NCBI GenBank assembly: GCA_934149405.1 | Contig: CAKPEV010000001.1 | Span: 552-64,551, forward strand | Direction: 5' to 3' | Source: an uncultured Clostridia bacterium | GTDB taxonomy: Bacteria; Bacillota; Clostridia; TANB77; UBA1234 | Length of the DNA: 64,000 nt | In this document: positions 9,286 to 49,997 of the stretch, piece by piece | Position numbering within the stretch: the first letter of the stretch is position 1 | How the letters are laid out: the number at the start of each line of letters is the position of its first letter | Notes under the pieces: model-generated | Told to the model about the DNA's origin: nothing | Database searches by the model: none | Seen by the model: only the letters and a program-made list of their open reading frames with translations | Translations under genes and position numbers: made by a program

Positions 9286-11607
9286 CTACATAACTTCTGG
9301 GGTTGGCTTTGGTTCAACAGGTAATTCAGCATCAGGTGTTGGAGTTATTTTCGAAATATTTCCAACAACTTGATAACCACACTCTGTGCATTTACCATCT
9401 GTTATTTTTTGATGTGAATGTGGTAATTTTGTAATTTCATTTCTCGTATATGCATATAAAATCGTTGCATCTTCTTCAGTTATTTTTCCATCTGCATTCA
9501 CATCCGCTACTTTTTCGTTTATTTTCGTACTGTTATTTTTTAAGTATGCATTCAATTTAGCAACATCGTAAAAATCAACCGTTCCATCTCCATTTACATC
9601 GCCATATAAAATTTCTTTTTGCTCGTATCCGCATTTTGCACATTTACCATCTTTTAGTTCGTGTTCTTCTTCTACTTTACCCAACGATAATCCGCAACCA
9701 CATGTATATACTATCTTATGTTTTTTCTCATTTAGTTGTTCAATCTCTATTTTATATGTTTGACAATCATGTGGTAATTTTTGAAATTCTGGCCATTCTG
9801 CAAAGTACATTCTCATTATTTGCAAATCGATTTCATTTACTTTTCCATCCATATTGACATCTGCTGCTTTTAAATCTATTTTTCCTACATCATAGCCTCC
9901 TTGCAAATATCTTGCTAATATTGTCCTATCTTTTGCTGTAACTACTCCATCTCCATTTACATCGCCATATAAAATTTCTTTTTCATATCCGCATTTTGTG
10001 CATTTATCATCTTTAAACTCATGATTTTCATCGCTTTCTGCTAAAGATAACCCACAACCACATGTATAAACTATTTTATGCTTTTCTGAATCAGCTTGCT
10101 TTATCTCTGTCTTGTATGGCTTTTTACAATCATGTGGCAACTTTGCGAAATCAGCCCATTTTGCAAGATGTTTTGTTAATATTATTAAATCAACTACATC
10201 TATTTTTCCATCTAAGTTTAAATCTGCTGCTTCTTTATCTATTTCTTCACTTGGATCTTGTATGTATTTTGTTAATGATAATCTATCTTTAGCTGTAACC
10301 TCGCCATCTCCATTTACATCACCGTATATGATTTCTTTTTCATATTCACATTTTGTGCATTTGTCATTTTTTAGTTCATGTGCTTCTGTAACCTGTCCTA
10401 AAGATAATCCGCAACCACATGTATAGACTATTTCGTGATTTTTAGCATCACTTTGTTTTATCGCTGTAGTGTATGGCTTTTTGCAATCGTGTGGCAACTT
10501 TGAAAAGTCAGCCATTCCGAAAATATTATTCATTATTATAAATGCATCTGCAATGTCTATTTTTCCATTCAAATTAACATCTGCGGCGTTTTTATCTATA
10601 TTTGCGACCTCACCCTTTAAATATTTTGATATAAGTGATACATCATCCGATGTAACTTTTCCATCTCTATTCGCATCACCATATAAAATTGTTAATTCGT
10701 GTTTACAACCTGTGCATACTTTATTTTTATATGTGTGCTCATGTGGCAATTCTTTTATATCTTTATTAACATACGCTTTTAGTACTATTGCATCAATTAC
10801 ATCAACATTGCCATCTTGATCTAAATCTAAATATTTATCTGCATTTTTTCTAATTTCATAAGGAATTTCATTTGCATAATCTTCTGGGAAGATTGAGTAA
10901 TTTTGTAAAAGTAGTGCATCTTCTTTCGTAATCTTGCCATCTCCATTTACATCGCCAATACTAAATGACTCAAGTTCACCTATCGCAATTTTTTGAAACA
11001 CATTATACATAAGTTGTGAAACTTCTGCTCTTGTTAAATTACCTTGTGGATCAAAACGTCCTTCTTTTCCTCTCATTATTTCATTTTTTACAGCTATTGC
11101 TACATATTTTTTAATGCCTTCTGAAATTTCACCACTATCTGAAAATTTGTTTAATAGCGTATAATCAGGTTTTTCATTTTGAAGCCCTTCTGCTTGGACA
11201 ACTGCTACAGCTACATCTTCTCTTACTGATGCTTCAGTTGGTCTAAAAAAGTACTTTCCATTGTTTTCATATCCAGTTAAATATCTACTAGCCCTATATA
11301 TGTAATCTTTTGACCATCTATCTTCTTCGATATCTACAAATTTTATGTTTGTTGTATTTCCTGCTATTTTTAGTGTTTCTACTAATATTTTTGCAAATTG
11401 TTCTCTTGTTACGCTTTCATCTGGTCTAAATGTTCCATCTTCGAAACCATTTAGCACTCCTTTTACTGCCATTTCTTCTACTACGGTTTTTGCCCAGTGT
11501 CCTTCAATATCGCTAAATGTTGTAGCGGCGAATGACAATGTTCCTAATGTAACCATAACAAATGAAATTATCGCTGTTACGATTACTTTCAACTTCTGGT
11601 TCATCAA
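9286..11607 (-). CDS. Secreted SLH-domain surface protein carrying five dockerin-like Ca-binding modules interleaved with Cys/His-rich (zinc-ribbon-like) modules
   Basis: Signal peptide. SLH motifs FSDIEGHWAKTVVEEM...REQFAKIL. Paired loops DVNGDGKITKED / DLDQDGNVDVID repeated five times. Repeated module LPHDCKKPY...YTCGCGLSL...H...C.KC. Confidence 0.7.
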   Translation of the reverse strand: MMNQKLKVIVTAIISFVMVTLGTLSFAATTFSDIEGHWAKTVVEEMAVKGVLNGFEDGTFRPDESVTREQFAKILVETLKIAGNTTNIKFVDIEEDRWSKDYIYRASRYLTGYENNGKYFFRPTEASVREDVAVAVVQAEGLQNEKPDYTLLNKFSDSGEISEGIKKYVAIAVKNEIMRGKEGRFDPQGNLTRAEVSQLMYNVFQKIAIGELESFSIGDVNGDGKITKEDALLLQNYSIFPEDYANEIPYEIRKNADKYLDLDQDGNVDVIDAIVLKAYVNKDIKELPHEHTYKNKVCTGCKHELTILYGDANRDGKVTSDDVSLISKYLKGEVANIDKNAADVNLNGKIDIADAFIIMNNIFGMADFSKLPHDCKKPYTTAIKQSDAKNHEIVYTCGCGLSLGQVTEAHELKNDKCTKCEYEKEIIYGDVNGDGEVTAKDRLSLTKYIQDPSEEIDKEAADLNLDGKIDVVDLIILTKHLAKWADFAKLPHDCKKPYKTEIKQADSEKHKIVYTCGCGLSLAESDENHEFKDDKCTKCGYEKEILYGDVNGDGVVTAKDRTILARYLQGGYDVGKIDLKAADVNMDGKVNEIDLQIMRMYFAEWPEFQKLPHDCQTYKIEIEQLNEKKHKIVYTCGCGLSLGKVEEEHELKDGKCAKCGYEQKEILYGDVNGDGTVDFYDVAKLNAYLKNNSTKINEKVADVNADGKITEEDATILYAYTRNEITKLPHSHQKITDGKCTECGYQVVGNISKITPTPDAELPVEPKPTPEVM

Positions 11608-22837: not shown

Positions 22838-23080
22838 TTATTTTACCTCTTCCAAAGCCCTTGCCAATTGGTCTCCACAAGATGTTCCTTTTGTACCACA
22901 ATTTATTCCCTTTAATAATTTAATAACCTTTTCCTTTGGTTGTCCCTCCACAAGAGCTGCTACAGCCTTTAAATTTCCATTACAGCCTCCTGTAAATCTT
23001 ACATTTTTAACTATTCCATTTTCTATTTCAAATTCAATTTTTCTTGAACATGTTCCATTTGTTTCATAAGTATATTTCAT
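22838..23080 (-). CDS. TIGR03905-family Cys-containing small protein. The likely start is MKYTYETNG, after an AAAAGGAGAG RBS.
   Basis: GTCSRKIEF...GGCNGNLKAVAALVEGQ...GTSCGDQLA resembles the TIGR03905 family. Confidence 0.55.
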   Translation of the reverse strand: MKYTYETNGTCSRKIEFEIENGIVKNVRFTGGCNGNLKAVAALVEGQPKEKVIKLLKGINCGTKGTSCGDQLARALEEVK

Positions 23081-23545
23081 TTTTACTCTCCTTTTATATT
23101 TTGGTGTGTCCATTAATTTTATGGAGCACGCCTAAGCTTAAGCTGAATTTTTGCAGCATATTTTATTCTTTCATAAATTAATTTACACTACCTTATATTT
23201 ATTTTGAGGCATTTGGAATAATTTATTTGCAATAGATTAAAATTTTTATATTTTCTCTTTTCCATTGCCATAAATACCCTGCCATTAATACTAGCAAATT
23301 TATTTTACTTTTCAGGATAAGTATTGTCAAGAGACCAAAATTTTATATAATATAATGTGATATAATATAACACGCTGTAATTAATATAAATATAAGTACA
23401 TTAACGATTGCCTTAATTTTCACAAAGAAATTGATGCGTTATCTTAAAAAATATAAATTATTTTAGTTTTCGACAAATTTCGACAAAATATAATCCTTAT
23501 AACTATTAAAATTGAAATATATTTTAATTTAAAGGAGGAATTGTT

Positions 23546-41128: not shown

Positions 41129-41242
41129 ACTATGCCCCCTTCCTCGTGTAAACCATTGATAGTTTACAACGGTTTTGCCTATTTGTCAAGCATTTTCTTA
41201 AGTTTGGGCAAAAAATAATTTCAACTATATCACATATTGATA

Positions 41243-41288
41243 ACAAAAATTACCTCATAGAGTTAGTTCTCTATAAGGTAATTTGATT
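41243..41288 (-). terminator. Terminator ATTACCTTATAGAG-loop-CTCTATGAGGTAAT plus TTTTTG
   Basis: 13-bp near-perfect inverted repeat and U-tract downstream of the 41353-41907 gene. Confidence 0.55.
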
Positions 41289-41352
41289 ATGTGTTAACTT
41301 TTATTATGTACTTTAATTTGCCAAATTTAGGTTTTTCATAGCTATTATTTTC

Positions 41353-41907
41353 TTAATCTGGCATTTCCATCATGAGTTTTATAAAACCTATGAAAAAAGC
41401 CCAACACAAGCCTATAATCAAAATGAATATAGCAAATCCTACTATTATAAAAGAACCTATATAATCCCATGCCGCTTCAAGACTCGTTCCACCTTTTTTT
41501 CTTGTTTTAGATATTATGGGCTTTTCAGCTACATGGATTGGCCCCATATTTGCTTCAGCCTCTTCTTCACAAGATGATAATTGCTCTTCTGACAGGTTGT
41601 TTGAAGATAACATCATTTTTCTTACTTTTCTTTTAACATCCCACAAATATAATTTATTAGCAGTAAACAAATAAATAAAAAATCTTATTATAGGATATGC
41701 AAACTTTATTCCAAGATCAACTGTAATTCCAAAAAGAACGGTTGAGCCGTACAATAATATAAATCCTAGCAAATATGATTTTCTATAAAAGAACCATATC
41801 GGGCCCAAGAATGCACCTAATATTGCTGCAGGCCAATTTAGTTTTTTATTTACAATTTTATCTGCATTTTTGCCTATGTATTCTAGTACTAATTTTTCTT
41901 CCATTTG
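41353..41907 (-). CDS. DUF2628-like small membrane protein. Likely start MEEKLVLEY.
   Basis: NWPAAILGAFLGPIWFFYRKSY motif and hydrophobic segments. Tentative family call. Confidence 0.45.
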   Translation of the reverse strand, partial: QMEEKLVLEYIGKNADKIVNKKLNWPAAILGAFLGPIWFFYRKSYLLGFILLYGSTVLFGITVDLGIKFAYPIIRFFIYLFTANKLYLWDVKRKVRKMMLSSNNLSEEQLSSCEEEAEANMGPIHVAEKPIISKTRKKGGTSLEAAWDYIGSFIIVGFAIFILIIGLCWAFFIGFIKLMMEMPD

Positions 41908-41981
41908 TTTTCCACCTTTCTTTTGGTTGTGTTCGCTAATTATAATATTTTTCATATTTTAATATTCTGCTATCAATTGAT

Positions 41982-42060
41982 TTTTATGGAGCACACTGTG
42001 CTCCGCTGCATGCCTACCTTTAATATTGAGTTAACTCTATTTGGTTTTTATGGAGCACGC
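41982..42060 (-). promoter_or_regulatory. Two tandem copies of the recurring leader motif TTTTATGGAGCAC(A/G)C. The first lies inside the perfect palindrome GGAGCACA-C-TGTGCTCC.
   Basis: Same 15-mer also at 23117-23131 and 46559-46573. All four copies sit upstream of minus-strand genes in the same orientation. Confidence 0.4.
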
Positions 42061-42067
42061 TTACATT

Positions 42068-43739
42068 TTACATTGTATTTTGTTTTTCGGCAACTTTTTT
42101 CATTCTTTCTATATACATTTTTGCATCTTCTGGCAAATCGAAGTTTGGAACATGTTTTGTCTTATAACTTAACGGATTTGTATTTGCACTTGTTTCGTCT
42201 ATTATGTCTTCTATTTCAAGCACAGCTTGCGCAAACATTTGAATATTTTTTTCATCGTTTTTTTGAACATAGTATGAAAATCCTTCACTTAAAAATGATA
42301 AGTATTCTAGATAATTTCTCATTACATATTTATTTAATAATAATCTTTTTTTCTGATAATATATGGCCTCATCATATTTCTTTTCATTTACTAATTTGTT
42401 AGAAAAAGCCTCATATATGCCACTTATATTCTTGTTGTATTTATATGCCATGTTTGCTATTTCAAGTTGTTCTGATGGCGATGTAACAGTATATAATTCT
42501 TCTTGGAGCGCATCTGTATAAAATGGCAAAATGCTATATGCTGTTTTATAATCTTTAATTTCATAAGCTAATGCTGCAATTGCAACTATAAAGAAACTAC
42601 ATAATAATGCACCTATCACTACATTAAACACCTTTTTCGATAAAAATGTTTTTGTATTAAATTTCGACATGATTATGAATAACAATATGAAATATATATA
42701 TTCAAAGTCTATATCTATCATCGAATGGCCTAATATTAAAATCATTATTAGTCTACTGATGACATTTTGTTTTTTATCAAAGAAAGTTAATACGGCAAAA
42801 ATGCTCAAGCAAATCATTGGGACTATACCAACATCAAGCATTATTTGTAGCAATGAGCAATGCACATATTTTGCATCATATATTCCTGTTTGTATTTCTG
42901 TTTGCTTATAGTACCAACCCATATATCCATACCCAAATGGATTATTCTTTATCATATCTATTGCATCTTTATAATAAAGTAATCTTGTTGTCATTTCTCC
43001 ACTTTGCATCATGTCTTTTGTTATTCTTTTTTCCATGTGAAATAGATTGTTTGCTACTAATAATCCGCAAGACTGAAATCATAATTATTACAAATATTCT
43101 TTTTTTGTTTTGATGAGAAAGAAACAATAAAGATATTTCACATAGTACCATTAAAATGATGATAGCTCTACTATTAGTCATTATTATTCCTGTGATTAGT
43201 ATGCCTGTACAAATATGTGCTCTTATGCCTTTCTTTTCTTGAAACAATTGTACTACCAAGGCTACTACTAAAAATAAACCATATGAGTTGGCATACTCAA
43301 ATAAACCTTGTAACCTATCATTAAAAAAATACAAATCTGATTTAAAAATCATTGAAAGAAAACTTATGATTACAGATACTGTCCCAGACATAGGAATTAC
43401 ATTTAAAATATGTACTACATCATCATCTTTATATTCGTACTGCAAGAATAAAATTGTAAAAAGGATTATACTTGAATTTTTTATAAAACCTATTACAGCC
43501 ATTCCTTTATCTACAGCATAAAAGCTAGTTACAATAAATGCAATTATATATACACTTAAAAGATAGAATTTAGTATCTTTGGGCAATATAATTTTTCTAT
43601 TTTTATTGATTTTGTATATTAAACCAATTAAACAGATTATGCTTAACATGACATTCGAGAATAAGCTTAAAAAACCTCCAAATATCGGCGCCATGAATAT
43701 AATTATTTTTATCAAATCTATTTTTCTACTTTTTTGCAT
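42068..43739 (-). CDS. O-antigen ligase (Wzy_C)-like polytopic membrane protein with a C-terminal TPR-like domain. Two overlapping ORFs imply a frameshift near 43045-43060.
   Basis: Upstream ORF is all TM helices (TNSRAIIIL). The downstream frame opens upstream of its ATG with GLLVANNLFH continuing a helix, then RLLYYKDAIDMIKNNPFGYGYMGWYY (ligase-like). C-terminal helical repeats. Confidence 0.55.
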
Positions 43740-43800
43740 ATTATACCTTTCTATTTTTTCATAAGAGCTGCCTTAAACAAGACAGCTCTTATGTTAGTGT

Positions 43801-46521
43801 TTATTCATCTAATTTAATTTCAATGTATGAATTCATGTTCTCTTTTAAATATATTAAAACACTCTGATGAGGAATCTCCACTCCGCTATCACTTATATAT
43901 CCTAAATAAGCATCACCGACAAAAAGCTCCTCTTCGGTTGCATTTACGAGATTTTTATCACTATCATAATAAACAAATTTTTCATAGGAATCTCCAAGGT
44001 TTATATACTCGCTCGATCCTTTTTTATAATAATAGACATCTCTGAAAAGATTATTAGAAGTTTTGATTTCTTTATATATACTTCTATCATTTTTATCAAT
44101 TACATACACTGTATTTCCCATAAAATACTCTGTTGTTCCATCAACTTTTGCATCAAAATCTATTCTTCCGCCAATAATTTGAAAAGCTTTATCTTCTGGT
44201 ATTATTCTTCTATAGTTTAGCACCCTTGCCGATGGTGTATATAAACATTCAGCATAAGAAATTAATTTGCTTTGCCAATCTTCTCCTAAATCAAGAGTTC
44301 CTTTTTTACTATTATAATTGTATCTTAAAGGAACTATATCCTTTATGCAATACTTAACATCTAAATTTTTAGCTAAAGCTATTGTTAAAAACTTACCATT
44401 ATATGTTGAATTGCTTTCTTGTTCAGAAAAATGCAGACCATTTTTACTAGGCTTTTTATAAGCTGACATATTATCTTCACTATTTCCATAGCAATATACA
44501 AAATCTTTATAATTAGGACCTAAATATACTGCTAAAGAGGCTTGGAAAAAATGTACCGAAGCAAAAGGATTTTTTACTTTAATTTTCACATAGTTGTTAG
44601 GATTCTTTTTATTTAAAATGTAAAAATAATATACTGTACGATCTCCTTGATAGTTACAGGATAACACTCTTTGCGATGGTGTATACATAGAATTTTTAAA
44701 ACTTGAAGAAAGCACGTCCGAATCTATGGCAGTATATATATAATCTTTCCAATTTTCACCTAAATCCACAGTGTAGGTTTCATTATCGTATGTATACAAT
44801 ATGTTTGACATATTATAACATACTCTTGAATTAGGATTAGCCTTTAATGAAATCCACACGTACATTGCATTGAATGTTGAATTTTTGTCTCTGTTATTTG
44901 AATTAGAATAATTTATCGTCTTTTTGTTTGGTGTATATTTTTCAAAATCAGAAAAACCATCAACATCATTTCCGTAACTAAACAAAAACTTAGTGTAATC
45001 CTTGCCCAAATATATTGTGCCACTCATTCTATCAACTTTTATTTCTGCGAAAGGATTTTTGGTTTCTATTTTAACAGAATCATTTATATTATTTTTTTTC
45101 ATTACAAGCACATAATTTCCGCAAAAAACATTTTTAGATTTTACCAAGATTTCTCTTTTGCATTCACCCTCAACATTATACTTCGAAGGTTCAAAATAAA
45201 AAGTTCTTTCAAGCTCTTCTGTATATGTTAAATATCTTTGCGACGGAGTATACTTAGTACCACGCTCTATACTTGCGTTATACTCATCTAAATAAACATA
45301 TTGATTCCAATTCTCCCCTAAGTCAAGTATACCTGTATTTACATCATATTTGATATCTGTTTTACTTGTATTAGTTTCTTCATTTTCCTTTGTTTGAGTT
45401 TCAATCTCAAAGTATGTATAACATGCTTTATTTTGTTTTAGAGCCACAAAAATATATTTCTTACCAAATGTTGTTCCACTATTATCTTTGGCATCTTCTG
45501 AGTAAGTTAATATTTTTTTGCTTGGTGTATAAGATATTTTCACATCATCTAGTGAATCTGAATATCCATATTTAAAATTCTTATAACCGCTTCCTAAATT
45601 TAATGTATTTTTCTCGCTGTCATAAGATACATCATCAAATGGGTTAACTATTTTGATTTTTACATAATTATCTTCATGTTGTGCATCTATTATAAAAAGA
45701 TATTTGCCACTAAAATAATCATTTCCTTCTTCTAATTCATTAAAAGTCAAAACTTGACTAGATGGTTTTCTTATTTTCTTTATTTTAGTGCCATATGAAT
45801 ATTTATATTTTTTCCAGTCCTTACCTAAGTCAACTGTACCTGTCTCTTCATCATATTCAAATGTAGGAAATTTTATTTTTTCTTCATCTAATACTATCTT
45901 TTCTAATACACTTAGCGAATTATGCATCAATTGGCAAACTTCTGCTCTTGTTAATTTGCCTTTTGGATTGAATGTGCCATCTGTGTTTCCTCTCATCAAT
46001 TCATTTTCAACAGCTATTGCTACATACTTTTTTAAATTTTCTGATATATTTTCTTTATCAGAGAATTTATTTAATGTAGAAAGTTTGTAAGAAGAATCTT
46101 GAAGACCAGCTGCCATTACAACAGAAACTGCTACATCTTCTCTCACAGCTTCATCTAATGGTCTGAAAAATAGTGTATCGTTTTCTCCTCTGTATGCTGA
46201 CAAATACTTACTAGCAACTTCGATATAATTATATGCCCAATGTTCTTTTTTAACATCTTGGAACGAAATATTATTTTTCTCCTTTAAATTTAATGTCAAA
46301 ACCAAAATTTTCGCAAACTCTGCTCTTGTTATTGATTTATTGGGCATGAACGTATTATCTGGATATCCAGACAATATTTTTTTAGTTGTCATGTCCATTA
46401 TTACACTATATGCCCAATGACTTTTATTAAGATCTGAATAATCTACTGCAAAAACGTTAGAAGAAAAAATCATGATTAAGCATATTAAAAATAAAAATAA
46501 AATTTTAAAATTCTTTTTCAT
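43801..46521 (-). CDS. SLH-domain S-layer-associated protein with about seven tandem ~100-aa modules carrying the conserved core (V/L)(D/N)LG.(D/N)(W/Y).(K/N)(Y/F).(Y/F)...YTPS...L.Y. Paralogous in its SLH region to 9286-11607.
   Basis: Signal peptide. SLH repeats. Repeated motif visible in the translation. Start placed at MKKNFKI, after an AAGAGGGG RBS. Confidence 0.65.
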   Translation of the reverse strand: MKKNFKILFLFLICLIMIFSSNVFAVDYSDLNKSHWAYSVIMDMTTKKILSGYPDNTFMPNKSITRAEFAKILVLTLNLKEKNNISFQDVKKEHWAYNYIEVASKYLSAYRGENDTLFFRPLDEAVREDVAVSVVMAAGLQDSSYKLSTLNKFSDKENISENLKKYVAIAVENELMRGNTDGTFNPKGKLTRAEVCQLMHNSLSVLEKIVLDEEKIKFPTFEYDEETGTVDLGKDWKKYKYSYGTKIKKIRKPSSQVLTFNELEEGNDYFSGKYLFIIDAQHEDNYVKIKIVNPFDDVSYDSEKNTLNLGSGYKNFKYGYSDSLDDVKISYTPSKKILTYSEDAKDNSGTTFGKKYIFVALKQNKACYTYFEIETQTKENEETNTSKTDIKYDVNTGILDLGENWNQYVYLDEYNASIERGTKYTPSQRYLTYTEELERTFYFEPSKYNVEGECKREILVKSKNVFCGNYVLVMKKNNINDSVKIETKNPFAEIKVDRMSGTIYLGKDYTKFLFSYGNDVDGFSDFEKYTPNKKTINYSNSNNRDKNSTFNAMYVWISLKANPNSRVCYNMSNILYTYDNETYTVDLGENWKDYIYTAIDSDVLSSSFKNSMYTPSQRVLSCNYQGDRTVYYFYILNKKNPNNYVKIKVKNPFASVHFFQASLAVYLGPNYKDFVYCYGNSEDNMSAYKKPSKNGLHFSEQESNSTYNGKFLTIALAKNLDVKYCIKDIVPLRYNYNSKKGTLDLGEDWQSKLISYAECLYTPSARVLNYRRIIPEDKAFQIIGGRIDFDAKVDGTTEYFMGNTVYVIDKNDRSIYKEIKTSNNLFRDVYYYKKGSSEYINLGDSYEKFVYYDSDKNLVNATEEELFVGDAYLGYISDSGVEIPHQSVLIYLKENMNSYIEIKLDE

Positions 46522-46695
46522 ATATTCCCCTCTTTTCAATATAGATTGTGCTCTACAATTTTATGGAGCACACTTTGTTGGCTGATGCTAGTTGTCTTGC
46601 CTATTTTAACGTGCAAAAAGCTAGCATTATGTTTTACATAATACTAGCTATCTCTTATTTTATTTGAAGTTTTTTTATTTATTAAGCAATATATC

Positions 46696-46717
46696 GTGTG
46701 TGTGTGTGTGTGTGTGT
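46696..46717. repeat. (GT)11 dinucleotide microsatellite
   Basis: cgtgtgtgtgtgtgtgtgtgtgttac read directly, about 175 bp upstream of the SLH gene start. Confidence 0.9.
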
Positions 46718-46780
46718 TACAGCCTCAAGGGTTTTAGCGTTCATATCTTTTTTCCTTTCTTAGTCCATCATTATTTTGTA

Positions 46781-46880
46781 TTATATACTAACCAGTTTTA
46801 CTTTGCAACCACATTTCTCTTACTACTTCACCTGTTTCTGTATCAATTATATACTAACCAGTTTTATTTCGCAATCACAT
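46781..46880. repeat. Two copies of a 34-bp direct repeat, TTATATACTAACCAGTTTTAYTTYGCAAYCACAT, 66 bp apart
   Basis: Copies at 46781-46814 and 46847-46880 differ at 3 positions. Confidence 0.8.
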
Positions 46881-46970
46881 TATATTCTGTACTCGCAAAA
46901 GGCCCTCAAGTAATAATTTGAAATCCGCATATAATAAATAATTATAGTTTGCTAGTATTTTTAAGCCAAA

Positions 46971-48713
46971 TTACGATAGTTTTATATGCACTTCTCTTAA
47001 TTGTTTTTGTGTTACTTCTCCTGGTGCTCTCATCAATAAATCTTCTGCATTTGCTGTCATAGGGAATGCTATTACCTCTCTTATGCACTCTTCACCTAGT
47101 AAAAGCATTACTATTCTATCAACTCCTGGTGCCATTCCAGCATGAGGTGGTGCACCAAATTTGAAGGCTTCATATAAAGCTCCAAATTTCGTTTGTAATT
47201 CCTCTTTTGTATATCCAGCTATCTCAAATGCCTTTTCCATTACATCGATTCTGTGATTTCTTACAGCTCCCGATGAAAGCTCAACTCCATTACATACGAT
47301 ATCATATTGATATGCCTTAATCTCCAAAGGATCTTTGTTTTGTAAATCATCAATTCCACCTTGTGGCATTGAAAATGGATTGTGCATAAAATCTATTTTG
47401 CCTTCATCATTTCTTTCATACATTGGAAAGTCTGTAATAAAGCACAATTCAAATTTGCTATTATCTATCAAATCCATTCTTTTTCCGAGTTCTGTCCTAA
47501 TTTCGCCAGCCAATTTGTCTACAAATTTTGGTGCATCACTTATGAAAAATAAAACGTCGCCTTGTTTCAAAGAAAGTAATTTCTTTATTTCTTCAGATTG
47601 CTCATCAGTAAAATACTTGGCAATCGGACCTTTGTACGTCATATCCTCTTCTACTTCTATATATCCAAGACCTTTCATACCGATTCCAAGAGCATATTCT
47701 AACATTTTTTCAAAAAATGATTTTGACATCTTTGTACAATCTGGCACAACAATACCTCTTACAGGTTTTCCTTTAAATGGTTTAAATTCGACTGTTTCAA
47801 AGAATTTTGTCAAATCCTCTATCACAAGTGGATTTCTTAAATCTGGTTTATCTGTTCCGTACTTTTTCATAGCCTCTTCGTATGGAATTCTTCTAAATGG
47901 TTTTTCAGAAACTTTTTTATCACTAAATTTAGAAAATATATCATATAATACCTCTTCAGCCGTATCAAAAACATCTTCTTGAGTGGCAAATGCCATTTCA
48001 AAATCCAATTGATAAAACTCTCCAGGAGAACGGTCTGATCTTGCATCCTCATCTCTAAAACAAGGTGCTATTTGAAAGTACTTATCAATTCCCGATGTCA
48101 TAAGCAATTGTTTAAATTGTTGCGGTGCTTGTGGCAAAGCATAAAACTTTCCTTTATGCTTTCTTGATGGAATTATATAATCTCTTGCACCTTCAGGCGA
48201 AGATGAAGTTAAGATAGGTGTTGTTATCTCTGTAAAGCCCATATCTTCCATCTTTCTTCTCATATAACTTACTACTTTTGATCTAAATAATATCTTGTCT
48301 TGAACTTTTTTGTTTCTTAAATCTAAAAAACGATATTTAAGTCTGACATCTTCTTTTGTCTTTAATGATTCTGCAACCTCAAATGGCAATGCACTTTGGC
48401 ATTCTCCAAGTATTTCTAATTTGTCAGCTAAAACCTCAACTTCGCCTGTTGAAATTTTTAAATTTATTGTGTCTTCGTCCCTTTCTATAACTTTTCCCAT
48501 TACTGATATAACAGTTTCTCTGTGAACATTTTTCAACATAGTTTCATCATGTATAACAATTTGAGAGACGCCATATTGATCTCTCAAATCTATAAACATG
48601 ACGCCACCATGGTCTCTAATGTTTTCAACCCAACCTGCTAATTTTAAAACTTTGCCAATATCACTTTTGCTAATTTGACCGCATGTGCAATCTCTGTAAA
48701 TGTTTCCTTTCAT
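46971..48713 (-). CDS. aspS: Aspartate--tRNA ligase
   Basis: Class II aaRS motifs. N-terminal OB anticodon-binding domain. 580 aa. Confidence 0.95.
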   Translation of the reverse strand: MKGNIYRDCTCGQISKSDIGKVLKLAGWVENIRDHGGVMFIDLRDQYGVSQIVIHDETMLKNVHRETVISVMGKVIERDEDTINLKISTGEVEVLADKLEILGECQSALPFEVAESLKTKEDVRLKYRFLDLRNKKVQDKILFRSKVVSYMRRKMEDMGFTEITTPILTSSSPEGARDYIIPSRKHKGKFYALPQAPQQFKQLLMTSGIDKYFQIAPCFRDEDARSDRSPGEFYQLDFEMAFATQEDVFDTAEEVLYDIFSKFSDKKVSEKPFRRIPYEEAMKKYGTDKPDLRNPLVIEDLTKFFETVEFKPFKGKPVRGIVVPDCTKMSKSFFEKMLEYALGIGMKGLGYIEVEEDMTYKGPIAKYFTDEQSEEIKKLLSLKQGDVLFFISDAPKFVDKLAGEIRTELGKRMDLIDNSKFELCFITDFPMYERNDEGKIDFMHNPFSMPQGGIDDLQNKDPLEIKAYQYDIVCNGVELSSGAVRNHRIDVMEKAFEIAGYTKEELQTKFGALYEAFKFGAPPHAGMAPGVDRIVMLLLGEECIREVIAFPMTANAEDLLMRAPGEVTQKQLREVHIKLS

Positions 48714-48739
48714 TTTTTATACCTCCAAATTAAGTTATT

Positions 48740-49118
48740 TCAAGGACGAAAAATCCCTAGCATGCAAACTTTATGCATACTAGGGACGATTTTTCCGTGG
48801 TACCACCCTGATTTAATATTCCAAAATATAAGGTTTAATACTACAAAAAACCTAGCATTGTAACAATGCTAGGGACGAATTTTTTCGCGGTACCACCCAA
48901 TTTCAATATCATGGATATCCTTAAGTAGCCTTTAACGCCAGCTATGCGAACTTGCTTTGCACAAGCCTACTCGAAAGGTGTTCTTTCATCAGTTTCGTTT
49001 ATGAAAACTCTCAGCTACGGTTAATTTTCACTCTCTTTAAACTACCTCTAATTACTTTTCCTTCGTCAACGCATTTTCAATGTGTTTCAATTTTAACATT
49101 TTATATAGTATATGTCAA
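48740..49118 (-). promoter_or_regulatory. T-box riboswitch leader of aspS. It carries its own TTGACA-17-TAAAAT promoter, Stem I with an AGAGAG box and a putative GAU specifier. It ends in two tandem antiterminator/terminator modules.
   Basis: Minus-sense T-box sequences TTGGGTGGTACCGCG (48886-48898) and AGGGTGGTACCACGG (48795-48809). Each is followed by a hairpin plus U-run (CCTAGCATTGTTACAATGCTAGG-TTTTTT and CCCTAGTATGCATAAAGTTTGCATGCTAGGG-ATTTTT). Confidence 0.75.
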
Positions 49119-49205
49119 ACAAAATTTTATTCTTTCAAAACATAGCCATGGTTAATACTTAAATTTGTTGTCAGCCTTACCATTCTAATTCTAGTAAACA
49201 GCTAA

Positions 49206-49801: not shown

Positions 49802-49997
49802 CCCTCAAGTAGTGCTTGACTATTTGGCAATTTACATGAAATTAGAAATATTTAAAGAAGCAATGATAAATATTCCGTTAAAACTTTCCGTATGTCCTAA
49901 GGAGCTGTTTAGGAAAGTTAAGGAATATATCATTGCTTCTTTTAAGATTTCTTTAAAATGTAACTCTTGCCGAATAATCAAACACTACTTGAGGGGG
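49802..49997. repeat. Nested imperfect palindrome (about 195 bp) with three concentric inverted-repeat tiers
   Basis: Outer tier CCCTCAAGTAGTGCTTGA / TCAAACACTACTTGAGGG. Middle tier AAAGAAGCAATGATAAATATTCC / GGAATATATCATTGCTTCTTT. Inner tier AAACTTTCC...GGAAAGTTA. Confidence 0.75.

What the first reader, a model, noticed from the sequence alone, without database searches (positions are those of the whole stretch)
46540..46970. (GT)11 microsatellite and 34-bp direct repeats in the promoter region of an S-layer-associated protein gene: candidate phase-variation switch
The 430-bp region upstream of the SLH repeat-protein gene contains, moving away from the ATG:
- the recurring GGAGCAC palindrome motif (46548-46573)
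- a perfect (GT)11 tract (46696-46717)
- two copies of a 34-bp direct repeat (46781-46814 and 46847-46880)

Dinucleotide tracts next to surface-protein promoters are a classic slipped-strand mispairing device that alters promoter spacing or transcript stability. A (GT)11 run is improbable by chance in a 28% GC genome.
Basis: partly seen in the sequence, partly recalled or inferred. Interest (0 to 1): 0.55.

Follow-up and report, generated by a model that had tools for sequence, protein, structure and literature searches.

The report
Hypervariable repeat switch before surface-protein gene
A run of (GT/AC) repeats upstream of a cell-surface protein gene in an uncultured human-gut Clostridia bacterium changes length between otherwise identical strains, and it sits inside a tiny leader reading frame just before a transcription terminator, the same layout as a proven stochastic on/off switch in Streptococcus gallolyticus.

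Summary
All three observed features are real. The (GT)11 tract (46696-46717) is the only long simple repeat in 64 kb. On the gene's strand (-) the region has this order:
- two copies of a sigma-70-like promoter, which are the "34-bp direct repeats";
- a Shine-Dalgarno sequence and ATG;
- a 20-codon leader ORF that contains the (AC)n tract;
- a 14-bp hairpin with a U-tract (intrinsic terminator, -18.4 kcal/mol);
- a second hairpin, then the SLH gene.

In 22 assemblies from human gut metagenomes the tract has 5, 8, 9, 10, 11, 12, 13 or 14 units. It differs between contigs that encode identical SLH proteins, while the rest of the intergenic region is identical. Four contigs break exactly at the tract.

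Two reading frames stop 25 or 32 nt before the hairpin. The third frame (n = 10, 13) stops inside the hairpin's 5' arm. This matches the pil1/pil3 switch of S. gallolyticus, where a repeat in a leader peptide controls attenuation (Danne 2014).

The tract is not a promoter-spacing device. Hypervariability is shown; the regulatory effect is inferred. I file it as a new member of a known kind, evolved independently. The window allele (n = 11) is predicted to be low/OFF.

The parts
46846..46881 (-). Direct-repeat copy 1, the distal promoter-like site P1 (-35 TTGCGA 46874-46869, 17-nt spacer, -10 TATAAT 46851-46846)
   Evidence: Sister lineages carry only one copy.
46780..46815 (-). Direct-repeat copy 2, the proximal promoter-like site P2 (-35 TTGCAA 46808-46803, 17-nt spacer, -10 TATAAT 46785-46780). 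The predicted transcription start is near 46773.
   Evidence: Conserved in all 20 or so related contigs.
46753..46758 (-). Shine-Dalgarno-like AAAGGA, 8 nt before the leader ATG. It reads GAGAGGA in L088-L090.
   Evidence: Read directly from the sequence and the alignment.
46682..46744 (-). Leader ORF of this allele (n=11): MNAKTLEAVTHTHTHTRYIA*. Its stop TAA at 46684-46682 lies 32 nt before the hairpin.
   Evidence: The long-frame version was called as a 34-aa gene in L091 and L103 and is present in the protein collection.
46696..46717 (.). (GT)11 on the + strand, (AC)11 on the coding strand: the hypervariable tract, codons 10-17 of the leader ORF
   Evidence: Lengths of 5-14 units occur in related contigs.
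46675..46677 (-). Stop codon TAA used when n mod 3 = 0 (n=9, 12), 25 nt before the hairpin
46644..46646 (-). Stop codon TAG used when n mod 3 = 1 (n=10, 13). It occupies positions 4-6 of the 5' arm of the terminator hairpin.
46614..46649 (-). Intrinsic-terminator-like hairpin (14-bp stem 46649-46636 / 46632-46619, 3-nt loop) followed by a U-run
   Evidence: I5.: -18.4 kcal/mol, z = -5.4, 0 of 200 shuffles fold as well. The terminator scan recognised the same hairpin in L083. It is identical in all related contigs.
46547..46572 (-). Second hairpin GTGCTC-N12-GAGCAC containing the recurring GTGCTCCATAAAA motif, 37 nt before the SLH ATG. Its role is unknown; it may be a 5'-UTR element or an operator.
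   Evidence: same motif and same spacing before an unrelated gene at 23079.
46527..46534 (-). Shine-Dalgarno AAGAGGGG of the SLH gene
   Evidence: Sequence
43801..46521 (-). Gene for the SLH-anchored surface protein (906 aa), the presumed target of the switch
   Evidence: Orthologues at 84-88% identity appear. The part after the first 900 nt is the most divergent.
41220..46915 (.). A 5.7-kb strain-variable island carrying the whole cassette: promoters, leader, SLH gene, a 256-aa gene, a Wzy_C (O-antigen-ligase-like) gene and a DUF2628 gene
   Evidence: L009 and L008 match the flanks (98.4-98.6% identity, except 95.3% for L008 on the aspS side) but lack this segment.
46971..48713 (-). aspS (aspartyl-tRNA synthetase), the upstream neighbour, with its T-box leader at 48868-49078. 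No terminator-like site was found between its stop and the leader.

Best explanation
The tract is the variable element of a stochastic (phase-variation) switch that acts through a leader peptide and a transcription terminator.

Proposed sequence of events:
1. Transcription starts at one or two sigma-70-type promoters, which are the direct repeats.
2. The transcript first encodes a short leader ORF that contains the (AC)n run. It then forms an intrinsic terminator hairpin before it reaches the SLH surface-protein gene.
3. Slipped-strand mispairing during replication adds or removes AC units. Each 2-nt step shifts the leader's reading frame.
4. In two frames (n mod 3 = 2 or 0) the ribosome stops 32 or 25 nt before the hairpin. 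The terminator then forms and most transcripts end there, giving a low/OFF state. The window allele, n=11, is in this class.
5. In the third frame (n mod 3 = 1, for example 10 or 13) the ribosome reads on to a TAG inside the hairpin's 5' arm. This masks the arm, suppresses termination and lets RNA polymerase continue into the SLH gene, giving a high/ON state.

Shown here: the anatomy, the frame geometry, and tract-specific hypervariability in natural populations.
Inferred: the promoters are used, the leader is translated, the hairpin terminates, and SLH expression follows the frame.
For: - Order of elements on the - strand: two promoter matches at 10 of 12 positions with 17-nt spacers, SD plus ATG, a leader ORF that contains the tract, a hairpin of -18.4 kcal/mol (z = -5.4) followed by a U-run, then the SLH gene.
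- Frame geometry was computed for n = 4-16. Stops fall 32 nt or 25 nt before the hairpin, or inside it.
- The tract has 8 different lengths in 22 assemblies. Groups with identical SLH protein differ: 13/9/9/12, 13/14, 10/14, and 11/10/10.
- In the window's group (window, L001, L002, L091-L094) every other position of the 449-nt spacer is identical.
- Four contigs end or begin exactly at the tract. L104 starts with TGTA(AC)13G, which is exactly one 31-mer. This is what a graph branch between coexisting alleles would produce.
- The promoter-to-terminator module is 97-100% identical across lineages. The stretch after the terminator is 78-96% identical in the diverged lineages (L101 is identical there), and the rest of the SLH gene (beyond its first 900 nt) about 90% except in L090 (98.8%).
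- No promoter-like site usable for the SLH gene lies between the hairpin and its ATG; the only match there (9 of 12 positions) runs into the coding region.
- An experimentally proven precedent has the same layout. In S. gallolyticus pil1/pil3 the order is promoter, leader ORF with (GCAGA)n, hairpin (-18.7 kcal/mol), pilus genes. Expression is low when the stop lies 28 nt or more before the hairpin and high when the stop lies within or beyond it (PMC3894217).
Against: - There are no expression data, no TSS mapping and no 3'-end mapping.
- An open third frame across about 16 A/T-rich codons could arise by chance (my rough estimate is 0.15-0.35).
- The leader's SD is modest (AAAGGA).
- All three frames occur at about equal frequency (6, 8 and 8 assemblies). 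A neutral repeat would give the same distribution.
- The sister lineage carries short tracts, (AC)5 and (AC)8. All 7 one-promoter contigs are in predicted-OFF frames, so the switch may be dispensable or bypassed there.
- The recurring GTGCTCCATAAAA element, 37 nt before the SLH ATG, could belong to an unrecognised promoter or operator that makes SLH transcription independent of the leader.
- Tight coupling of transcription and translation is not universal in Firmicutes (my own knowledge).
Confidence: 0.55

Rival explanations
1. The tract is a neutral hypermutable microsatellite. It slips readily but lies in a leader where its length has no consequence. The small ORF and the frame geometry are coincidental.
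For: The three frames are about equally populated (6, 8, 8). (AC)5 alleles exist. The open third frame has only modest statistical weight. There are no functional data.
Against: Long dinucleotide runs are otherwise absent from this 64-kb window. A perfect tract of 8-14 units is kept across lineages whose island genes have diverged by 2-10%, except that two sister-lineage contigs have only (AC)5. Every element and distance matches the proven pil1/pil3 switch.
Confidence: 0.2
2. Promoter, small ORF and terminator form an independent unit, either a phase-variable small peptide gene or a roughly 160-nt small RNA. The SLH gene is transcribed from its own unrecognised promoter near the GTGCTCCATAAAA element.
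For: The unit has its own promoter, SD, ORF and terminator. The motif lies 37 nt before the ATG of two unrelated genes. Sister strains carry 2-4.6 copies of an 88-bp unit containing the motif between the terminator and the SLH gene, one of them with a weak promoter-like match.
Against: The peptide's C-terminus is not conserved in frame across strains, so the peptide itself is unlikely to be the product. No Rfam family matches. At the second locus the only good promoter lies about 170 nt upstream of the motif, so there the motif sits in a 5' UTR rather than acting as a promoter. The module always travels with the SLH gene.
Confidence: 0.15
3. The tract acts without translation. Its length changes the DNA (for example alternating purine-pyrimidine Z-DNA near the promoter) or the folding and stability of the 5' UTR. 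The effect would then be graded by length rather than set by frame.
For: The tract lies at about +56 to +77 of the predicted P2 transcript.
Against: (AC)n is predicted to be unpaired in all folds, so 2-nt steps should change structure little. The tract is outside the promoter hexamers and spacer. No precedent was found in the paper library.
Confidence: 0.07
4. The length differences are assembly or sequencing artefacts at a dinucleotide repeat.
For: Dinucleotide runs stutter in PCR-based libraries. Several contigs break at the tract.
Against: The differences reach 5 units between contigs with identical SLH protein and 9 units overall. The tract is 10-28 nt long, far shorter than a read. Four independent samples of one lineage all give n=9 and two give n=5. 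Different assemblers (NODE_, k141_, Logan) each give several lengths. Other low-complexity runs in the same spacer, such as A7, never vary.
Confidence: 0.03

Closest known systems
[quoted passage not shown] 2014, PMC3894217)
   Same: The order of elements is the same: promoter, SD/ATG, short leader ORF containing a simple repeat whose unit is not a multiple of 3, stops in the short frames 25-39 nt before a hairpin, a long frame ending within or beyond the hairpin, a hairpin of about -18 kcal/mol, then a surface-structure gene. Repeat number differs between strains. Both organisms are gut-associated Firmicutes.
   Different: The repeat is AC (9-14 units, 18-28 nt) rather than GCAGA (13-22 units). 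The target is an SLH-anchored wall protein, not a sortase pilus operon. The host is an uncultured Clostridia. There is no sequence similarity, so the origin is independent. The promoter is duplicated here. Nothing has been tested experimentally.
Clostridioides difficile cwpV switch (Emerson et al. 2009, PMC2784873)
   Same: It gives phase-variable expression of a clostridial cell-wall protein. The promoter lies upstream of the variable element, and the proposed OFF state is formation of an intrinsic terminator in the leader transcript.
   Different: The variable element there is a 195-bp segment inverted by a site-specific recombinase. Here no flanking inverted repeats were found, no contig has the opposite orientation, and the variable element is a slipping dinucleotide repeat read by the ribosome.
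Promoter-spacer repeat switches, for example (TA)n between -35 and -10 of Haemophilus influenzae hifA/hifB (my own knowledge, not checked here)
   Same: A dinucleotide repeat upstream of a surface-structure gene changes length by slippage.
   Different: Those tracts lie between the promoter hexamers and act by changing their spacing. Here the tract starts 63 nt downstream of the -10 box, in transcribed and probably translated sequence.
Translation-coupled attenuation of E. coli pyrBI (my own knowledge, not checked here)
   Same: A ribosome translating a leader ORF that extends into the attenuator hairpin physically prevents termination.
   Different: In pyrBI the signal is the UTP-dependent distance between polymerase and ribosome. 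Here the signal would be a heritable, reversible frameshift.

Membership tests
Leader-peptide SSR / attenuation phase switch (pil1/pil3 type) | Promoter upstream of the leader ORF, not of the structural gene alone | tested here: met
   Two TTGCRA-17-TATAAT matches lie 36 and 102 nt upstream of the leader ATG. The only match between the hairpin and the SLH ATG (9 of 12) overlaps the start of the coding region. This is a consensus match only; the TSS has not been mapped.
Leader-peptide SSR / attenuation phase switch (pil1/pil3 type) | Short ORF with SD and ATG that contains the repeat, with a unit length that is not a multiple of 3 | tested here: met
   AAAGGA, 8 nt, ATG at 46744; the (AC)11 tract occupies codons 10-17. 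Translation itself has not been shown.
Leader-peptide SSR / attenuation phase switch (pil1/pil3 type) | Repeat number varies between and within closely related strains | tested here: met
   Lengths 5, 8, 9, 10, 11, 12, 13 and 14 occur in 22 assemblies. The tract varies within identical-SLH groups. Four contigs break at the tract.
Leader-peptide SSR / attenuation phase switch (pil1/pil3 type) | Stem-loop terminator between the leader ORF and the structural gene | tested here: met
   14-bp stem, 3-nt loop, U-run; -18.4 kcal/mol, z = -5.4. The terminator scan flagged it in L083. Termination activity has not been measured.
Leader-peptide SSR / attenuation phase switch (pil1/pil3 type) | Short frames stop well before the hairpin; a long frame stops within or beyond it | tested here: met
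   Stops lie 32 nt and 25 nt before the hairpin, or at positions 4-6 of its 5' arm. The published thresholds are 28 nt or more for low, and within or beyond for high. The 25-nt frame is slightly inside that limit.
Leader-peptide SSR / attenuation phase switch (pil1/pil3 type) | Translation-dependent increase in downstream transcription, with heterogeneous expression in a clonal population | not testable with these tools
   This needs reporters, RT-qPCR, flow cytometry or allele-resolved metatranscriptomes.
Leader-peptide SSR / attenuation phase switch (pil1/pil3 type) | Sequence homology to the S. gallolyticus leader | tested here: not met
   The repeat unit (AC versus GCAGA), the peptide and the hairpin are all different. 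The resemblance is in mechanism and architecture, not descent.
Promoter-spacing SSR switch | Repeat located between, or overlapping, the -35 and -10 hexamers | tested here: not met
   The tract at 46717-46696 lies 63-84 nt downstream of the P2 -10 box (46785-46780).
Translational SSR switch inside the structural gene | Repeat within the coding sequence of the regulated protein | tested here: not met
   The tract ends 174 nt upstream of the SLH ATG. The SLH ORF has no simple repeat of more than 5 units.
Invertible-DNA switch (cwpV / invertible promoter type) | Inverted repeats flanking a segment found in both orientations | tested here: not met
   Only weak, distant inverted matches were found. 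All of the 20 or so related contigs have the same orientation.
Known structured RNA leader (Rfam) | Match to a curated covariance model | tested here: not met
   Nothing in 46400-47100 reaches any gathering score. The best match scores 20.7 bits against a threshold of 35.

The most novel reading that the evidence does not exclude
This is an independently evolved leader-ORF/terminator phase switch driven by a dinucleotide repeat. It controls an S-layer-homology surface antigen in an uncultured human-gut Clostridia, and all three phases have been caught in wild populations (Hadza, Nepali and other gut metagenomes).

It is one layer of a multi-tier contingency locus. The other layers are presence or absence of the 5.7-kb island, one or two promoter copies, a variable-number 88-bp repeat in the 5' UTR, and a fast-diverging C-terminal surface domain.

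If this holds, the pil1-type mechanism is a recurrent design rather than a streptococcal curiosity, and it can be found from metagenome assemblies alone.
Probability: 0.5. Interest if true: 0.65.

Novelty: new member of a known kind. Interest (0 to 1): 0.58.

Why it matters
Phase variation in gut commensals has been charted mostly for invertible promoters and DNA-methylation switches. Repeat-driven switches in gut Clostridia, and in S-layer-type proteins, are barely described.

In the paper library searched here, the only described case of a repeat in a leader peptide controlling a terminator is S. gallolyticus pil1/pil3. A second, unrelated example would have three consequences:
- It would show that the design evolves repeatedly.
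- It would give a simple sequence signature for genome scans: promoter, SD/ATG, a repeat whose unit is not a multiple of 3, frame-dependent stops, then a terminator.
- It would point to a surface antigen that this uncultured bacterium turns up and down stochastically, presumably under phage or host immune pressure.

The natural allele series (n = 5-14) is already a ready-made test set.

Tried and rejected
- Rfam, at gathering thresholds on the whole window and at permissive E-values on 46400-47100, found no leader or sRNA family.
- The first metagenome scan, with the 5' flank of the tract, found nothing. The second, with the terminator sequence, gave one extra contig (L105, n=8).
- GTDB species representatives: the two closest genomes (L008, L009) lack the whole island, so they gave no comparison for the tract but did define the island borders. 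No dinucleotide run of 6 or more units was found in the roughly 9-kb aspS neighbourhoods of 37 relatives.
- Distant SLH homologues at 37-39% identity (L106, L107) have ordinary upstream regions without a leader or repeat. The module is confined to a narrow clade.
An exact look-up showed that only the n=10 and n=13 long-frame peptides had been called as proteins.
- Promoter-spacing, in-gene frameshift and invertible-switch readings were rejected on position and orientation.
- Long-range pairings in the full-leader fold (CCCUU with the SLH SD; GGCUG with CAGCC) and a 20-nt, 80% complementary match between the aspS 3' flank and the terminator's 5' side (I3) were considered as possible antiterminators. 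I set them aside as likely chance, because there is no variation to test covariation.
- The terminator and leader are too conserved to allow any covariation or dN/dS test.

Full report
**The observation**

All the listed features exist.
- (GT)11 is perfect at 46696-46717. A GT run of even 16 nt never occurred in 100 dinucleotide-preserving shuffles.
- A scan for simple repeats found nothing comparable in the 64-kb window. The next longest dinucleotide run has 5 units and there is no homopolymer of 9 or more.
- The direct repeats are 36 nt long (46780-46815 and 46846-46881), 92% identical and 66 nt apart.
- The palindrome GTGCTC-N12-GAGCAC lies at 46548-46571.
- The window is 30.8% G+C, not 28%.

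**Context**

All genes here are on the - strand. Their order is: a clpC-like gene, a 150-aa gene, a T-box leader (48868-49078), aspS (46971-48713), a 449-nt spacer, a 906-aa SLH-domain protein (43801-46521), a 256-aa protein, a Wzy_C protein and a DUF2628 protein.

The organism is an uncultured human-gut Clostridia. The nearest species representatives are the MAGs "Clostridiales bacterium UBA4698" and an "uncultured Eubacteriales bacterium". Candidatus Fimenecus follows at about 71% AspS identity.

Those two MAGs match the flanks (98.4-98.6% identity; 95.3% for L008 on the aspS side) but lack window 41220-46915. In them aspS has its own terminator and is followed directly by ylxM-ffh. The promoters, the tract, the SLH gene and three further genes therefore form a 5.7-kb strain-variable island.

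**Anatomy on the gene's strand**

1. The "34-bp direct repeats" are two copies of a promoter-like site: TTGCGA-17-TATAAT (46874-46846) and TTGCAA-17-TATAAT (46808-46780), each matching 10 of 12 consensus positions.
2. AAAGGA at 46758-46753 lies 8 nt ahead of an ATG at 46744.
3. That ATG opens a 20-codon ORF, MNAKTLEAVTHTHTHTRYIA* (46744-46682). The (AC)11 tract forms its codons 10-17.
4. A hairpin at 46649-46619 has a 14-bp stem and a 3-nt loop and is followed by a U-run. It folds at -18.4 kcal/mol (z = -5.4; none of 200 shuffles folds as well). The terminator scan flagged the identical hairpin in a related contig.
5. A second hairpin (46572-46547) carries the GTGCTCCATAAAA motif.
6. The SLH gene's SD, AAGAGGGG, and its ATG follow.
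7. No promoter-like site usable for the SLH gene lies between the first hairpin and its ATG. The only match there, at 9 of 12 positions, overlaps the start of the coding region.

The tract is therefore 63 nt or more downstream of the nearest -10 box. It lies in transcribed and probably translated sequence, not in a promoter spacer.

**The tract is hypervariable**

I fetched contigs that encode the identical AspS or SLH protein, or close SLH variants, from ENA, Logan, NCBI and JGI assemblies. This gave 22 complete tracts.

| Units (n) | 5 | 8 | 9 | 10 | 11 | 12 | 13 | 14 |
|---|---|---|---|---|---|---|---|---|
| Assemblies | 2 | 1 | 6 | 3 | 1 (the window) | 2 | 5 | 2 |

Groups of contigs with an identical 898- or 906-aa SLH protein differ in n:
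- 13/9/9/12 for P0122
- 13/14 for P0123
- 10/14 for P0124
- 11/10/10 for the window's own protein

In the alignment of the spacers, the window's group (window, L001, L002, L091-L094) is identical at every position except the tract. The variation is therefore specific to the tract and much faster than point substitution.

It is also reproducible. Four samples of one lineage all show n=9, and two samples of another show n=5.

Four contigs end or begin exactly at the tract:
- L003 and L005 end after (AC)11.
- L007 starts with (AC)10.
- L104 starts with TGTA(AC)13G, which is exactly 31 nt.

This is what a de Bruijn graph produces when two tract lengths coexist in one sample. That reading is an inference; library stutter is the alternative.

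**What the length changes**

I rebuilt the leader with n = 4-16.

| n mod 3 | Examples | Stop codon | Position relative to the hairpin |
|---|---|---|---|
| 2 | 5, 8, 11, 14 | TAA 46684-46682 | 32 nt before |
| 0 | 9, 12 | TAA 46677-46675 | 25 nt before |
| 1 | 10, 13 | TAG 46646-46644 | positions 4-6 of the 5' arm |

Automatic gene callers annotated the long form as a 34-aa gene in two assemblies. The 32- and 34-aa peptides are present in the protein collection.

**Comparison with known systems**

A full-text search for the combination of phase variation, simple repeat, leader peptide and terminator returned one mechanistic paper, Danne et al. 2014 (PMC3894217).

In S. gallolyticus, pil1 and pil3 are preceded by a promoter, a leader ORF containing (GCAGA)n, and a stem-loop terminator (-18.7 kcal/mol for pil1). 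Leader peptides that stop 28-39 nt before the hairpin give low pilus expression. Frameshifted, longer peptides whose stop lies within or beyond the hairpin give high expression, because the ribosome prevents the hairpin from forming. That work proved this with ATG, stop-codon and terminator-deletion mutants.

The present locus reproduces that architecture element by element, including the distances and the hairpin strength. It does so with an unrelated repeat, peptide, hairpin, target gene and host.

The C. difficile cwpV switch is a looser analogue. It also controls a clostridial wall protein through a terminator in the leader, but the variable element is an invertible segment (PMC2784873). 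No inverted repeats or flipped orientations occur here.

**Most likely mechanism (confidence about 0.55)**

Slippage in (AC)n cycles the leader ORF through three frames. One frame (n mod 3 = 1) carries the ribosome into the terminator and permits read-through into the SLH gene. The other two let the terminator form. The window allele (n=11) would be in a low state. In the sampled assemblies the three frames are populated 6, 8 and 8.

Supporting points:
- The promoter-to-terminator module is 97-100% identical across lineages. The stretch after the terminator drops to 78-96% in the diverged lineages, and the rest of the SLH gene (beyond its first 900 nt) to about 90% in most.
- One lineage strengthens the leader SD, from AAAGGA to GAGAGGA.

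Weak points:
- There are no expression data.
- The statistical weight of an open third frame is modest.
- The (AC)5 and (AC)8 alleles, and the fact that all seven one-promoter contigs sit in predicted-OFF frames, weaken the case.
- An unrecognised promoter or operator near the SLH gene remains possible.

**The GGAGCAC / GTGCTCC element**

- The 13-mer GTGCTCCATAAAA occurs four times in the window.
- It lies 37 nt before the SLH ATG. It lies at the same distance before the ATG (23079) of an unrelated small gene. There the hairpin is kept with a different 3' arm, and the only good promoter lies about 170 nt further upstream. This suggests a 5'-UTR element rather than a promoter.
- In sister strains it is part of an 88-bp unit repeated 2 to 4.6 times between the leader terminator and the SLH gene. 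The copy number differs between contigs with the same SLH protein.
- Its function is unexplained, and it is the main caveat to the model.

**Rivals**

| Rival explanation | Confidence |
|---|---|
| Neutral microsatellite | 0.20 |
| Independent small gene or sRNA, with a separate SLH promoter | 0.15 |
| Translation-independent effect of length | 0.07 |
| Assembly artefact | 0.03 |

**Verdict**

- The phase-variation idea is supported at the level of hypermutability.
- The promoter-spacing mechanism is rejected in favour of a leader-peptide/terminator switch of the pil1 type.
- It is a new, independently evolved member of a known but so far nearly unique kind.
- Interest is moderate to fairly high (0.58), mainly because the natural allele series makes the model directly testable.

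Noticed in passing
window 41220-46915: The whole cassette (promoters, leader, SLH gene, 256-aa gene, Wzy_C gene, DUF2628 gene) is a 5.7-kb island. It is absent from the two closest species-representative MAGs. Their flanks are 98.4-98.6% identical (95.3% for L008 on the aspS side), and in them aspS has its own terminator followed directly by ylxM-ffh.
   Followed up: partly
window 23117-23129, 41982-41994, 42046-42058, 46559-46571 (all - strand); palindrome GGAGCAC-AGT-GTGCTCC at 41988-42004: The motif GTGCTCCATAAAA recurs exactly four times. It lies 37 nt before the ATG of both the SLH gene and an unrelated small gene (ATG 23079). Each time it is part of a hairpin, but with a different 3' arm (GAGCAC versus ATGGACAC). 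It is probably a shared 5'-UTR element or operator.
   Followed up: partly
L083:2558-2963; shorter arrays in L084 and L095-L098: An 88-bp unit containing the GTGCTCC motif is tandemly repeated 4.6 times in L083 and about 2 times in L084 and L095, between the leader terminator and the SLH ribosome-binding site. The window has only a partial single unit. Copy number differs between two contigs encoding the same SLH protein (P0005). Logan contigs L085-L087 and L099 all start 91 nt before the SLH ATG, at this repeat.
   Followed up: partly
L083, L084, L095-L098 versus window 46916-49200: In sister lineages (clpC flank 91-96% identical) the island follows the 145-aa gene directly. The T-box leader and aspS are missing at this site, and only one promoter copy is present.
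   Followed up: no
window 43801-45621 versus 45622-46521: The first 900 nt of the SLH gene are 97-99% identical between lineages. The remaining 1.8 kb is about 90% identical with indels in five of the six contigs compared (98.8% in L090), even where the flanks are identical (L101). This points to a fast-diverging or recombining surface-exposed part.
   Followed up: no
window 49802-49995: A large imperfect palindrome lies between the clpC-like gene and the 150-aa gene. It has nested arms of 29 nt (90% complementary) and 28 nt (89% complementary). It also appeared as a reverse self-match in blastn.
   Followed up: partly
window 9926-10690 and 61798-63267: Long tandem repeats are present, with a period of 357 bp (about 2 copies) and periods of 93/180/273/366/459 bp (up to 4 copies). 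They are probably repeated protein modules. The region 11002-11433 is about 70% identical to the SLH-domain part of the gene studied here, which indicates a second SLH protein gene.
   Followed up: no
L105:770-790: A low-coverage contig (1.1x) of the one-promoter type has (AC)8 and lacks 2 nt (GA) just before the hairpin. With that deletion the long frame would stop at a TAG overlapping the first two bases of the stem. This may be a sequencing error.
   Followed up: no
window 46880-46970: No terminator-like site follows aspS in this strain, because the island replaced the terminator seen in L008 and L009. T-box-controlled aspS transcripts may therefore run into the leader and end at its hairpin.
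   Followed up: no
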